Below are positions 2,694 to 4,101 of a stretch of DNA of 4,509 nt, in pieces (positions within the stretch are counted from its first letter, which is position 1; each line of letters starts with the position of its first letter). A model generated the notes under the pieces. It saw only the letters and a list, made by a program, of their open reading frames with translations. It was not told the origin of the DNA and searched no databases. The translations under genes were made by a program, and so were the position numbers. Origin of the DNA: a virus (Duplodnaviria; Heunggongvirae; Uroviricota; Caudoviricetes); IMG/VR virus record IMGVR_UViG_2690316115_000004. One strand, written 5' to 3'.

Positions 2694-2756
2694 AAGGCAT
2701 ATGTTTCATGCAAATCTGATATTTTGCCGATTTTGTACGTGATGGCAAAAGCAAAC

Positions 2757-2784
2757 AAAACCCGCCCACAAGCGGGTTTTGTTG
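2757..2784 (+). terminator. Intrinsic terminator-like hairpin downstream of the Q-like gene, flanked by A-tract and T-tract (possibly bidirectional)
   Basis: AAAACCCGC (2757-2765), loop CCACAA, GCGGGTTTT (2772-2780), then GTTGTG. A 5-bp GC stem extended by A:U pairs with a U-rich 3' tail. Confidence 0.55.
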
Positions 2785-2787
2785 TGC

Positions 2788-2836
2788 CACTTATCTCGGA
2801 TAGACATGGTGAATGCGCTGGTGGAGGAGATAAGGG
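2788..2836. repeat. Inverted repeat (CACTTATCTC ... GAGATAAGGG) separated by 29 nt, just upstream of the promoter -35
   Basis: 2790-2797 CTTATCTC is the exact reverse complement of 2827-2834 GAGATAAG; the match extends to 9 of 10 over 2788-2797 versus 2827-2836. Function unknown; could be an operator or RNA structure. Confidence 0.4.
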
Positions 2837-2850
2837 TGATTTTTGTATGC

Positions 2851-2879
2851 TTGCAACATTGATTTCGTAACGTTATTAT
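2851..2879 (+). promoter_or_regulatory. Near-consensus sigma70 promoter (TTGCAA, 17-bp spacer, TATTAT) driving the tRNA cluster; candidate late promoter PR'
   Basis: -35 TTGCAA at 2851-2856, 17-bp spacer, -10 TATTAT at 2874-2879, with a T-rich stretch upstream. Predicted start around 2886, 2-3 nt before the first tRNA. Assignment as PR' is inference from position downstream of the Q-like gene. Confidence 0.55.
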
Positions 2880-2888
2880 CCTGCGCCC

Positions 2889-2964
2889 GGCCCTTTAGCT
2901 CAGTGGTGAGAGCGAGCGACTCATAATCGCCAGGTCGCTGGTTCAAATCCAGCAAGGGCCACCA
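2889..2964 (+). tRNA. ileZ: tRNA-Ile2 (anticodon CAU, lysidine type; formally also readable as Met), ileZ-like
   Basis: Manual cloverleaf: acceptor GGCCCTT/AAGGGCC, D-arm GCTC-AGTGGTGA-GAGC, anticodon loop CTCATAA (CAU), T-arm GCTGG-TTCAAAT-CCAGC, discriminator A and encoded CCA. 76 nt, closely resembling E. coli ileX as I recall it. Confidence 0.85.
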
Positions 2965-2965
2965 A

Positions 2966-3041
2966 CCGCCACTAGCCATCAGGAAAGAGCGTCAACCCTT
3001 TAAGTTGAGTGTGCGAGGTTCGAGTCCCCGGTGGTGGTCCA
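2966..3041 (+). tRNA. tRNA-like element in the argN slot, probably degenerate or a pseudo-tRNA (apparent anticodon UUU with C at position 33 and a weak D-stem)
   Basis: Exactly 76 nt between the flanking tRNAs. Acceptor CCGCCAC/GTGGTGG (one G-U), perfect anticodon stem TCAAC/GTTGA with loop CCTTTAA, T-arm CGAGG-TTCGAGT-CCCCG (one mismatch) and terminal TCCA. The D-stem has two mismatches and position 14 is not A. Confidence 0.4.
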
Positions 3042-3054
3042 TTATCGGTATTCT

Positions 3055-3128
3055 GCGTTGTTAGCTCAGCAGGACAGAGCAATTGCCTTCTAAGCAATCG
3101 GTCACTGGTTCGACTCCAGTACAACGCG
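3055..3128 (+). tRNA. argO: tRNA-Arg (anticodon UCU, reads AGA/AGG), argO-like; CCA not encoded
   Basis: Manual cloverleaf: acceptor GCGTTGT/ACAACGC, D-arm GCTC-AGCAGGACA-GAGC, anticodon stem ATTGC/GCAAT with loop CTTCTAA (UCU), T-arm ACTGG-TTCGACT-CCAGT, discriminator G followed by CTA rather than CCA. Confidence 0.85.
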
Positions 3129-3144
3129 CTACACTTATTTTCCC

Positions 3145-3168
3145 GGCTCGCTTTTGCGGGCCTTTTTT
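3145..3168 (+). terminator. Rho-independent terminator after the tRNA cluster (candidate tR')
   Basis: GGCTCGC (3145-3151), loop TTTT, GCGGGCC (3156-3162), a 7-bp stem with one U-G, followed by TTTTTT (3163-3168). Confidence 0.7.
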
Positions 3169-3211
3169 GTATCTGCGCCACGCCCGGCGCATACCAACCA
3201 CAGAGCCTTTC

Positions 3212-3221
3212 GGGGGGGGGG
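3212..3221. repeat. G10 homopolymer tract in the intergenic leader upstream of the TerB-like gene
   Basis: Direct read: C then ten consecutive G at 3212-3221. Long G runs are uncommon in enterobacterial DNA and are slippage-prone. Confidence 0.9.
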
Positions 3222-3303
3222 AGCTTACGGAGTGGTCAGTGTGACTTTCTCTGTGGGCAGATCGCTCCCGGGCGTTGGCTCACCCACCCAAAGGAACGTC
3301 ACG

Positions 3304-3736
3304 ATGTTTGGTATTTTGGGTAAAAAAAGCCCGCAGAGCGGCAACGGAAATTAAAAAGTTTGAAAAACGCGATCTGGCACAGGTGGTGATTAACGCCGCC
3401 TACCTGGTGGCCTGTGCAGATGGTGAATGTGAGGCTTCCTAGAAAGCGAAGATCGAACAGGTACTGCGTAATCAGCCTGCGCTGTACGCGTTTACGTCAG
3501 AAATTAATGCGATTAGCGCAACCATTATCGGTCAGCTGGATACGAACTTTAAAACTGGTCGTCGTGCGGCGTTACGTGAGATCGAGGATGTGAAACACGA
3601 TACGCGTGAAGCGGAAGATGTGCTGGATGTGGCGGTGGCCATTGCGGAGGCAGACGGCGAAATTGAGCCGGAAGAGCGCAAGGTGCTGGAAGAGATTGCC
3701 GGTGTTCTGGGTCTTCGTCTGGAGAATTACCTGTGA
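3304..3736 (+). pseudogene. TerB-like (tellurite-resistance TerB superfamily) gene, apparently disrupted by a +1 frameshift in an A7 run (3322-3328) and an in-frame TAG (3440-3442)
   Basis: AAGGA (3291-3295) sits 8 nt upstream of ATG 3304; this frame gives MFGILGKKSPQSGNGN then TAA at 3352-3354. The next frame from 3329 reads ARRAATEIKKFEKRDLAQVVINAAYLVACADGECEAS-TAG-KAKIEQVLRNQPALYAFTSEINAISATIIGQLDTNFKTGRRAALREIEDVKHDTREAEDVLDVAVAIAEADGEIEPEERKVLEEIAGVLGLRLENYL, ending TGA 3734-3736. The ADGE...E and AEADGEIEPEE segments look like the paired TerB motifs. Deleting one A restores a continuous frame from the ATG. Confidence 0.55.
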
Positions 3737-3900: not shown

Positions 3901-4101
3901 TTTTTTTGTTTGCTGTTTATTAAAAACACTTCTGCATGGTGAATCCCCCTGTGCGGTGGGGCAATCAGCAAGAAGGAATATGGGGTAATCGCGGATTCAG
4001 GTGCTGATACTGAATTCACCGGGAGGCACCCGGCACCATGCTTTGCCACAAAAGTGTTATTTCTGTTTTTCTCAAACTATCATCGTTATCCCTTTATTTT
4101 C

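What the first reader, a model, noticed from the sequence alone, without database searches (positions are those of the whole stretch)
2966..3041. Middle element of the tRNA cluster is a canonical-length but degenerate tRNA with an odd anticodon loop (CCUUUAA)
The slot between the Ile2 and Arg(UCU) tRNAs is exactly 76 nt and keeps acceptor, anticodon and T stems plus a terminal CCA. However the D-stem is broken, position 33 is C rather than the near-universal U, and the apparent anticodon UUU is not the Arg anticodon expected for an argN-like gene. It may be a decaying tRNA, or a tRNA-derived RNA kept for processing or another role.
Basis: seen in the sequence. Interest (0 to 1): 0.45.

Follow-up and report, generated by a model that had tools for sequence, protein, structure and literature searches.

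The report
Crippled prophage lysine-type tRNA gene copy
The middle element of this prophage tRNA cluster is a one-base-deleted, recombinant copy of a lysine-type tRNA gene found in many E. coli prophages; it is most likely a recently disabled gene rather than a new kind of RNA.

Summary
Window 2966-3041 is a 76-nt tRNA-shaped unit with intact acceptor and anticodon stems and CCA, a T stem of 4 pairs plus one A.C mismatch, a broken D stem, C33 and anticodon UUU. ARAGORN calls it tRNA-Lys(ttt). The Rfam tRNA model gives 28.2 bits against a threshold of 29, and RefSeq/PGAP leaves it unannotated.

It is not an argN that decayed in place. It is 97.4% identical to a 77-nt prophage tRNA that PGAP annotates as tRNA-Lys. 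That tRNA scores 44.4 bits and has the same CCUUUAA loop in 119 of 123 IMG/VR copies. The family occurs in about 798 of 5,426 complete E. coli genomes, usually in an Ile2-Lys-Thr-Gly cluster. It diverged from argN with three compensatory stem changes, so C33 and UUU are family traits.

The window copy has two lesions of its own. One D-stem base (U12) is deleted. Its 3' end comes from an argN/argO cluster, which creates a G3.U70 pair.

The exact form occurs in 222 genomes, in prophages described as defective. Other lineages hold other decayed forms of this slot. The best reading is a recently crippled tRNA gene, still co-transcribed and probably still cut by RNase P. This is ordinary. The intact family is a modest lead as a possible nuclease-resistant tRNA-Lys.

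The parts
2851..2879 (+). Promoter-like site TTGCAA-17 nt-TATTAT directly upstream of the first tRNA.
   Evidence: Consensus scan, 9 of 12 matches. The sequence is identical in the parent-type cluster L008, in phage Evi and in Stx2 phage F349. Function is inferred, not shown.
2889..2964 (+). Intact tRNA with anticodon CAU, ileZ-like (tRNA-Ile2).
   Evidence: ARAGORN. Rfam tRNA 72.5 bits. PGAP annotates tRNA-Ile in an essentially identical (99.9%) RefSeq locus.
2966..3041 (+). The finding: a 76-nt degenerate tRNA with anticodon UUU and loop CCUUUAA. It is a U12-deleted, chimeric member of the prophage 'tRNA-Lys' family.
   Evidence: ARAGORN tRNA-Lys(ttt). Rfam 28.2 bits against a threshold of 29. 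PGAP annotates nothing here. It is 97.4% identical to the intact 77-nt family member.
2975..2990 (+). Defective D arm. One base (U12) is missing between 2976 and 2977, so only G10-C25 and C11-G24 can pair. A14, G18 and G19 are kept.
   Evidence: Alignments A1, A2 and A4 show a single gap against GCUCA. The D stem adds no stability to the cloverleaf, and the cloverleaf lies 7.9 kcal/mol above the MFE, against 2.7 for the intact form.
2992..3008 (+). Anticodon arm: stem UCAAC/GUUGA and loop CCUUUAA (C33 at 2998, UUU at 2999-3001).
   Evidence: Sequence. The loop is shared by 119 of 123 family copies. Pairs 27-43 and 30-40 changed on both sides relative to argN.
3013..3034 (+). Interval that contains the recombination junction. 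To its left the sequence follows the Lys-type cluster; from U70 (3035) onward it follows the argN/argO cluster.
   Evidence: In 40-nt windows, 2777-3038 matches L008 and 3039-3171 matches Stx2 F349. The last Lys-type-specific base is 3012 and the first argN-type-specific base is 3035.
3035..3035 (+). U70, which pairs with G3 (2968) to give a G3.U70 wobble pair.
   Evidence: Only two of the 46 unique family variants have G.U at this pair: this form and F349-type argN (pair 3-71). Phage Evi, which was not in that alignment, also carries U70.
3055..3129 (+). Intact tRNA-Arg(UCU), argO-like.
   Evidence: ARAGORN. Rfam 68.1 bits. PGAP annotates tRNA-Arg.
3145..3170 (+). Intrinsic-terminator-like hairpin followed by a T run, closing the three-unit transcription unit.
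   Evidence: Consensus scan: 7-pair stem with 6 G-C pairs, then TTTTTTGT. It is conserved in phage Evi and in F349.

Best explanation
The element is a recently crippled, chimeric copy of a tRNA gene family carried by E. coli lambdoid prophages. The family has an argN-like body, anticodon UUU and loop CCUUUAA, and annotation pipelines call it tRNA-Lys. The 5' part of this copy, up to about tRNA position 47, comes from the Lys-type gene that normally sits in an Ile2-Lys-Thr-Gly cluster. From U70 onward, through the spacer, tRNA-Arg(UCU) and the terminator, it comes from an ileZ-argN-argO cluster of the Stx2-phage type. It has also lost U12, which collapses the D stem.

Shown: the homology, the mosaic structure, the deletion, the score drop from 44.4 to 28.2 bits, and the absence of a PGAP call.

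Inferred: the unit is still transcribed with its two intact neighbours from the promoter-like site at 2851-2879. It is probably still cut by RNase P, because the acceptor/T-arm helix and CCA that RNase P needs are intact, and because only 1 nt separates it from the upstream tRNA. It probably folds poorly, so it likely contributes little or nothing to decoding. On this reading it is a young tRNA pseudogene riding in a decaying prophage. Its otherwise clean stems reflect how recent the lesion is, not selection.
For: The window copy is 97.4% identical to the intact 77-nt form. PGAP annotates the intact form as tRNA-Lys and annotates nothing over the window form. The window form is exact in 222 genomes and the intact form is exact in 279. 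The Rfam tRNA scores are 28.2 for the window, 44.4 for the intact form, 43.0 for argN, and 53.2 for the U33 relative.

The only difference within the first 60 nt is the single-base gap in the D stem. The cloverleaf lies 7.9 kcal/mol above the MFE, against 2.7 for the intact form and 2.2 for E. coli lysT. The mosaic is supported by left-flank identity to L008 and right-flank identity to Stx2 F349.

A deposited phage genome, phage Evi, has the same Ile-Lys-Arg architecture with an intact D stem. The slot decays repeatedly. In 29 of 124 clusters anchored on ileZ (120 IMG/VR loci plus four non-IMG/VR sequences) ARAGORN called only tRNA-Met(cat) and tRNA-Arg(tct), finding nothing in the middle slot. 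Those include forms with the anticodon arm deleted and forms fused to argO. Another Lys-type form, with U4, C8 and U11, is exact in 171 genomes and also gets no PGAP call.

The host prophage is degraded: neighbouring genes are pseudogenes, and PPompW prophages are described as defective (PMC8112680). The promoter-like site and the terminator bracket the three units.
Against: There are no expression, processing or aminoacylation data. ARAGORN still accepts the element as a tRNA, and the Rfam score is only 0.8 bit under threshold. G10-C25, C11-G24 and possibly C13-G22 with a bulged A23 could form a 3-pair D stem, which some real tRNAs have. The U12-deleted form is found in two genomic contexts and in 222 genomes, so loss of function is not proven. 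Minimum-free-energy folding is a weak guide for tRNAs: argN of F349 also lies 6.4 kcal/mol from its MFE.
Confidence: 0.7

Rival explanations
1. The element is still a working tRNA(UUU). Despite its weakened D arm, it supplies a spare lysine tRNA that tRNA-cutting defence nucleases such as PARIS AriB or PrrC cannot cleave.
For: The anticodon UUU and the rest of the loop match E. coli tRNA-Lys except for U33C. E. coli already has several tRNA-Lys(UUU) genes (five lie in the 1.2-kb stretch), so codon supply is not an obvious reason to carry one. All three published AriB determinants differ here: G39, U41 and C16, against U39, A41 and U16. In E. coli tRNA-Lys, U39A abolishes cleavage, and A41C and U16C impair it (PMC12409363). 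PrrC cuts immediately 3' of U33 (PMC2610378), and this family has C33. Phage tRNA-Lys(UUU) genes rescue cells from AriB (PMC11464382, PMC12445682). The family kept its stems through three compensatory changes.
Against: This copy has the D-stem deletion and scores below threshold. [quoted passage not shown] The Thr(UGU) gene in the parent cluster is 100% identical to host thrU, which is itself a target of AriB and of P2 OLD, so the cluster is not a set of resistant variants. About half of the genomes that carry the family hold forms PGAP does not accept, which suggests weak selection. The family is confined to E. coli and Shigella in the species-representative genome set.
Confidence: 0.13
2. 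The element is kept as tRNA-shaped punctuation. Its acceptor/T-arm helix is retained so that RNase P can cut 1 nt after the upstream tRNA-Ile2 and separate the tightly packed transcript, with no decoding role.
For: Only 1 nt separates the CCA of the upstream tRNA from this element. The acceptor stem, T arm and CCA are intact while the D arm is not. Even the heavily altered middle-slot forms keep the acceptor stem and CCA. From established knowledge, acceptor/T-arm minihelices are sufficient substrates for bacterial RNase P.
Against: The deletion is too recent for conservation to carry information: there are no other differences from the intact form in the 5' two-thirds. Some decayed relatives have destroyed T loops, with GCGGG replacing UUCGA, and some clusters lack the slot altogether through argN/argO fusion. 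An intact middle unit is therefore not required. This rival also overlaps the best explanation rather than excluding it.
Confidence: 0.1
3. The element is an argN gene (tRNA-Arg UCG) that decayed in place, with random mutation producing the UUU anticodon and C33.
For: It occupies the same slot, is 84% identical to argN, and has an identical 3' third.
Against: The divergent positions are shared exactly with a distinct family present in about 798 genomes. Stem differences from argN are compensatory on both sides at pairs 7-66, 27-43 and 30-40 and do not disrupt pairing. The flanks show recombination, not in-situ decay.
Confidence: 0.03

Closest known systems
Prophage 'tRNA-Lys(UUU)' with loop CCUUUAA in the Ile2-Lys-Thr-Gly cluster of E. 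coli lambdoid prophages (annotated by PGAP and ARAGORN; no paper on it was found)
   Same: It is 97.4% identical. It has the same acceptor 5' strand, D loop, anticodon arm, C33, UUU, variable loop and T arm. It sits in the same position 1 nt after the Ile2 tRNA and has the same promoter region.
   Different: The window copy lacks U12, so its D stem is broken. It has U70 instead of C70. It is followed by tRNA-Arg(UCU) rather than Thr(UGU)-Gly(UCC). It scores 28.2 bits against 44.4, and PGAP does not call it.
argN, tRNA-Arg(UCG), of the ileZ-argN-argO cluster in Stx2 phages (annotated in AP012530; the original 933W description is recalled from memory, not read here)
   Same: It occupies the same slot between ileZ and argO. 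The body is homologous (84% identity). The sequence is identical from about position 48 to the CCA, and in the spacer, argO and terminator. It shares G3.U70 and A51.C63 with F349 argN.
   Different: The anticodon is UUU, not UCG, and position 33 is C, not U. Pairs 7-66, 27-43 and 30-40 differ. The element is 76 nt rather than 77, and its D stem is broken.
Phage T5 tRNA-Lys(UUU), the PARIS-neutralising rescue tRNA (PMC11464382, PMC12409363)
   Same: It is phage-borne, has anticodon UUU, and differs from host tRNA-Lys at the AriB cleavage-site positions 39-41 and at position 16.
   Different: It has no common origin. T5 tRNA-Lys resembles host lysT, with G1-C72, A73 and U33, whereas the window element has an argN-type body with C1-G72, U73 and C33. 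Resistance and lysine acceptance are shown for T5 and untested here. The window copy is also structurally damaged.
Bacterial tRNA pseudogenes and tRNA remnants in prophages
   Same: It is a tRNA-derived sequence with a disabling structural lesion. The standard annotation pipeline skips it, and it lies in a degraded prophage next to other pseudogenes.
   Different: It is very young and full length, it keeps its CCA, and it is embedded in an apparently live transcription unit between two intact tRNAs.

Membership tests
Canonical elongator tRNA (Rfam RF00005) | Covariance-model score at or above the gathering threshold (29 bits) | tested here: not met
   28.2 bits, E = 1.5e-4 on the 96-nt stretch. 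No hit at E<=1 in the whole-window scan.
Canonical elongator tRNA (Rfam RF00005) | 7-pair acceptor stem, 5-pair anticodon stem with a 7-nt loop, T loop UUCRANY, U8, A14, G18G19, purine 37 | tested here: met
   Read directly from the sequence and from the model alignment. The T stem has one A51.C63 mismatch, as do the intact family member and F349 argN.
Canonical elongator tRNA (Rfam RF00005) | D stem of 3-4 pairs | tested here: not met
   U12 is deleted, leaving 2 contiguous pairs. The model marks two D-stem non-pairs, and the D stem adds no folding energy.
Canonical elongator tRNA (Rfam RF00005) | U33 (the U-turn nucleotide) | tested here: not met
   C at 2998. This is a family trait: C33 occurs in 122 of 123 copies.
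Canonical elongator tRNA (Rfam RF00005) | Accepted by the standard annotation pipeline (tRNAscan-SE as used in PGAP) | tested here: not met
   No feature is annotated over the element in the RefSeq records listed (about 10 exact-match genomes, plus L001); exact matches occur in 222 genomes. tRNAscan-SE itself could not be run here.
argN (tRNA-Arg UCG) of Stx-phage ileZ-argN-argO clusters | Position between ileZ and argO, with a homologous body | tested here: met
   It is 84% identical and the 3' third is identical.
argN (tRNA-Arg UCG) of Stx-phage ileZ-argN-argO clusters | Arginine anticodon (UCG), including the C35 identity nucleotide | tested here: not met
   The anticodon is UUU. A20 is retained.
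Prophage CCUUUAA-loop 'tRNA-Lys' family | Near-identity in sequence, including the anticodon arm UCAAC-CCUUUAA-GUUGA | tested here: met
   97.4% identity with an identical anticodon arm.
Prophage CCUUUAA-loop 'tRNA-Lys' family | Intact cloverleaf (77 nt with D stem GCUC/GAGC) | tested here: not met
   76 nt, with GC-C in place of GCUC.
Prophage CCUUUAA-loop 'tRNA-Lys' family | Acceptance of lysine | not testable with these tools
   The name rests on the anticodon alone. The discriminator is U73, whereas host and T5 tRNA-Lys have A73.
Nuclease-resistant rescue tRNA-Lys (anti-PARIS type) | Same anticodon as the targeted host tRNA, with substitutions at the nuclease's recognition positions | tested here: met
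   Anticodon UUU with G39, U40, U41 and C16, against host U39, C40, A41 and U16. The determinants come from PMC12409363.
Nuclease-resistant rescue tRNA-Lys (anti-PARIS type) | Shown to escape cleavage and to restore translation or phage growth | not testable with these tools

The most novel reading that the evidence does not exclude
The intact CCUUUAA-loop family is an E. coli-specific, prophage-borne tRNA-Lys(UUU) that was recruited from an argN body by anticodon switching and is kept because it resists tRNA-Lys-cutting defence nucleases. C33 sits at the PrrC scissile site, and G39, U41 and C16 sit at the AriB determinants. On this reading the window copy is either a still partly active member or a freshly lost one. 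A natural, widespread elongator tRNA with C33 would itself be unusual.
Probability: 0.15. Interest if true: 0.55.

Novelty: new member of a known kind. Interest (0 to 1): 0.22.

Why it matters
For this window it matters mainly for annotation. Eleven GenBank phage records label this exact sequence tRNA-Lys, while RefSeq omits it. The evidence favours marking it as a tRNA pseudogene or degenerate tRNA.

More broadly, the middle slot of the lambdoid ileZ-X-argO cluster turns out to be a hotspot of anticodon switching (UCG, UCU, UUU), recombination and repeated decay, while the rare-codon tRNAs on either side stay intact.

If the intact family proved to be nuclease-resistant, it would extend the rescue-tRNA idea from large lytic phages such as T5 to temperate lambdoid phages. 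Those are the phages that P2 and P4 defence systems target. That claim is untested, and the host-identical Thr tRNA in the parent cluster weakens it.

Tried and rejected
1. The whole-window Rfam scan at E<=1 missed the element. Rescanning only 96 nt recovered it at 28.2 bits.

2. Plain MFE folding was uninformative. Neither the window copy nor the intact family member folds into a cloverleaf as its MFE. I therefore compared cloverleaf energy with the MFE. An earlier attempt was invalid because it counted the A.C mismatch as a pair and one structure string had the wrong length.

3. I considered that the whole parent Ile-Lys-Thr-Gly cluster might be a set of nuclease-resistant tRNAs against PARIS and P2 OLD. 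I rejected this for Thr, which is 100% identical to host thrU, and Gly is nearly identical to glyT.

4. I first thought the U12 deletion predated the recombination. I withdrew that. Phage Evi has the recombinant architecture with an intact D stem. Both states therefore occur in both contexts, and the order of events cannot be resolved.

5. Literature searches for ileZ/argN/argO, for argN with 933W, and for Stx tRNA genes found nothing in the held library. The tRNA-library supplement of the OLD paper is not held. The eLife paper on phage-tRNA evasion does not discuss position 33.

6. The scan of species-representative genomes returned only E. coli and Shigella flexneri, so no deeper divergence was available to test C33 conservation.

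7. The ORFs that overlap the element (2791-2979 on the minus strand, 2972-3181 on the minus strand, 3009-3323 on the plus strand) are not annotated in RefSeq. I treated them as spurious.

8. The minus-strand 'Plastid-ycf2' Rfam hits are reverse-complement tRNA look-alikes below threshold.

Full report
**Context.** The window is the late-regulatory region of an E. coli lambdoid prophage. It is 99.6-99.9% identical to prophages of O111:H8 and O55:H7 strains and of other E. coli isolates. The tRNA cluster (2880-3140) is 100% identical to 'PPompW' prophage records. After the Q antiterminator gene (ORF 1998-2693) comes a compact unit. It has a promoter-like site at 2851-2879, three tRNA-shaped genes at 2889-3129, and a terminator-like hairpin at 3145-3162 followed by a T run. 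The outer two genes are sound. The tRNA(CAU) is ileZ-like and scores 72.5 bits. The tRNA-Arg(UCU) is argO-like and scores 68.1 bits. PGAP annotates them as tRNA-Ile and tRNA-Arg.

**The observation.**
- The unit is 76 nt (2966-3041).
- The acceptor stem has 7 pairs and the anticodon stem has 5 pairs.
- The loop is CCUUUAA, with C33 at 2998 and UUU at 2999-3001.
- The T stem has one A.C mismatch, and U73-CCA follows.
- The D stem can form only two pairs.

ARAGORN calls it tRNA-Lys(ttt). The Rfam tRNA model aligns it in the same register at 28.2 bits against a gathering score of 29. PGAP annotates nothing there. Eleven GenBank phage records label the identical sequence tRNA-Lys.

**What it derives from.** In Stx2 phage F349 the same slot holds argN, a 77-nt tRNA-Arg(UCG) scoring 43.0 bits. 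The window differs from it at about a dozen positions, all between tRNA positions 7 and 47. The flanking tRNAs and the 3' third are essentially identical.

I anchored a scan of IMG/VR on the 3' end of ileZ. It showed that those divergent positions are not private to this copy. They define a second family whose intact 77-nt form is CCGCCACUAGCUCAUCAGGAAAGAGCGUCAACCCUUUAAGUUGAGUGUGCGAGGUUCGAGUCCCCGGUGGCGGUCCA. This form normally sits in an Ile2(CAU)-Lys(UUU)-Thr(UGU)-Gly(UCC) cluster. It scores 44.4 bits and PGAP names it tRNA-Lys.

A second scan targeted the anticodon arm. It found CCUUUAA in 119 of 123 copies, UCUUUAA in 2, ACUUUAA in 1, and a canonical CUUUUAU loop with U33 in only 1. That U33 relative scores 53.2 bits and occurs in only about 20 complete genomes. 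C33 and UUU are therefore the normal state of the family.

Forty-six unique argN-type and Lys-type sequences were aligned on the cloverleaf. 96.6% of the sequence-by-pair cells form standard base pairs. Three pairs differ on both sides between the two clades: 7-66 (U-A to C-G), 27-43 (C-G to U-A) and 30-40 (G-C to A-U). G.U intermediates are present for two of them. These represent about three events, not many. They do show that the Lys-type lineage diverged from an argN-type ancestor while keeping tRNA structure, that is, by anticodon switching rather than decay.

**What is specific to the window copy.** There are two differences from the intact family member.
- U12 is deleted, so GCUCA becomes GCCA between 2976 and 2977.
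- Position 70 is U rather than C (3035).

U70 belongs to a larger mosaic. Window 2777-3038 follows the Lys-type cluster (L008). Window 3039-3171 (spacer, argO, terminator) follows the F349 argN/argO cluster. The junction lies somewhere in the shared stretch 3013-3034.

The same recombinant Ile-Lys-Arg architecture, with an intact D stem, exists in the deposited genome of Escherichia phage Evi. The U12 deletion also occurs in two loci that keep C70 and the downstream Thr gene. Recombination among these clusters is therefore frequent, and the order of the two events cannot be fixed.

**Consequences of the lesion.** The model score drops by 16 bits. The D stem no longer adds any stability. The cloverleaf lies 7.9 kcal/mol above the minimum-free-energy fold, against 2.7 for the intact form and 2.2 for E. 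coli lysT. This measure is crude, since F349 argN is also 6.4 kcal/mol away from its MFE.

**Population picture.** About 798 of 5,426 complete E. coli genomes carry a member of the family.
- 279 have the exact intact form, which PGAP calls tRNA-Lys.
- 222 have the exact window form, which PGAP does not call.
- 171 have the exact U4/C8/U11 form, which PGAP does not call.

More degraded versions also exist. In 29 of the 124 clusters anchored on ileZ (120 IMG/VR loci plus four non-IMG/VR sequences) ARAGORN found nothing in the middle slot. Those include an 80-nt form with a replaced anticodon arm and a ruined T loop, forms with the anticodon arm deleted, and argN/argO fusions.

The family was found only in E. 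coli and Shigella flexneri among species-representative genomes. The prophage around the window copy carries several pseudogenes, and PPompW prophages are described as defective (PMC8112680). The simplest reading is that the middle slot is under weak selection and is lost repeatedly, and that the window copy is one recent loss.

**Mechanism proposed.**
- Shown: the element is a structurally damaged, chimeric member of a tRNA gene family, embedded between two intact tRNAs inside one promoter-terminator unit.
- Inferred: it is co-transcribed with its neighbours.
- Inferred: it is probably still released by RNase P. Its acceptor/T-arm helix and CCA are intact, and only 1 nt separates it from the preceding CCA. 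Established knowledge is that such minihelices suffice as RNase P substrates.
- Inferred: it folds poorly and contributes little to decoding.

A residual role as processing punctuation is possible. It cannot be inferred from conservation, because the lesion is too recent.

**A lead at the family level.** E. coli already has several tRNA-Lys(UUU) genes (five lie in the 1.2-kb stretch), so a phage copy is not an obvious codon supplement. PARIS AriB cleaves host tRNA-Lys(UUU) at U36AAUC|A41. U39A abolishes cleavage, and A41C and U16C impair it (PMC12409363). This family has G39, U40, U41 and C16. PrrC cuts 3' of U33 (PMC2610378), and the family has C33. Phage tRNA-Lys genes are known to rescue cells from AriB (PMC11464382, PMC12445682).

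Several points count against this lead.
- The Thr(UGU) gene in the parent cluster is identical to host thrU, which is itself an AriB and P2 OLD target.
- The discriminator is U73, not A73.
- Lysine charging has not been tested.
- About half of the carrier genomes hold forms the pipeline does not accept.

I rate this reading at about 0.15. It concerns the intact family more than the window copy.

**Verdict.** The element is a degenerate tRNA. Its odd loop and anticodon are inherited family traits. Its true lesions are a one-base D-stem deletion and a recombinant 3' end. It is an ordinary, recent tRNA pseudogene in a decaying prophage and is of low interest in itself, with a modest testable lead attached to its intact relatives.

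Noticed in passing
window 2968 and 3035; also L002:2589 and 2656 (argN of Stx2 phage F349): The acceptor stem carries G3.U70, the pair that is the main identity element for alanyl-tRNA synthetase (recalled from established knowledge). Only these two of the 46 unique family variants have it. Mischarging with alanine is conceivable but was not tested.
   Followed up: partly
IMG/VR loci such as L007, L014, L015 and L024 (the middle slot after ileZ): The commonest middle-slot variant in the ileZ-anchored scan, about 25 of 120 loci, is an 80-nt form that ARAGORN does not call. It keeps the acceptor stem and CCA. Its anticodon arm is replaced by a GACGAC/GUUGUU stem with an 11-nt loop, and its T loop reads GCGGG. 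It may be a decayed argN or a distinct tRNA-like RNA.
   Followed up: partly
L008:7349-7503 and K-12 thrU/glyT (L227): The prophage Thr(UGU) gene is 100% identical to host thrU, and the Gly(UCC) gene differs from glyT at two positions. They are separated by 3 nt, whereas the host operon has tyrU between them. This looks like capture of host tRNA genes by the phage.
   Followed up: partly
window 3905-4077 (+): There is a strong Rfam match to the sRNA STnc100 (100.8 bits against a threshold of 47). Related loci carry several tandem STnc100-like copies: L009 has four or five, and L021 has partial copies interleaved with tRNAs.
   Followed up: no
window 2754-2783: A 13-pair hairpin, terminator-like on the minus strand and with a partial T run on the plus strand as read directly, lies just downstream of the Q gene. 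It gives weak sub-threshold Rfam matches to isrK and OrzO-P. It may be the tR'-type terminator of the late operon or a small RNA.
   Followed up: no
window 3212-3221: A run of ten G lies between the tRNA terminator and the TerB-family pseudogene. It is a possible slippage-prone tract.
   Followed up: no
L234 (Escherichia phage Evi) 287-363: The phage Evi copy has an intact D stem and the same Ile-Lys-Arg architecture. It carries G66A, which gives a C7.A66 mismatch, and a change in the variable loop. No tRNAs are annotated in that record.
   Followed up: partly
L031, L021 and variant v19: The argN-type body also occurs with anticodon UCU, and in some clusters the slot after ileZ is taken instead by an argO-like tRNA with anticodon CCG or UCU. 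Some argN variants have acceptor or T-stem mismatches, for example AAGGCGG giving A6.A67. Anticodon switching and decay are common across the whole family.
   Followed up: no
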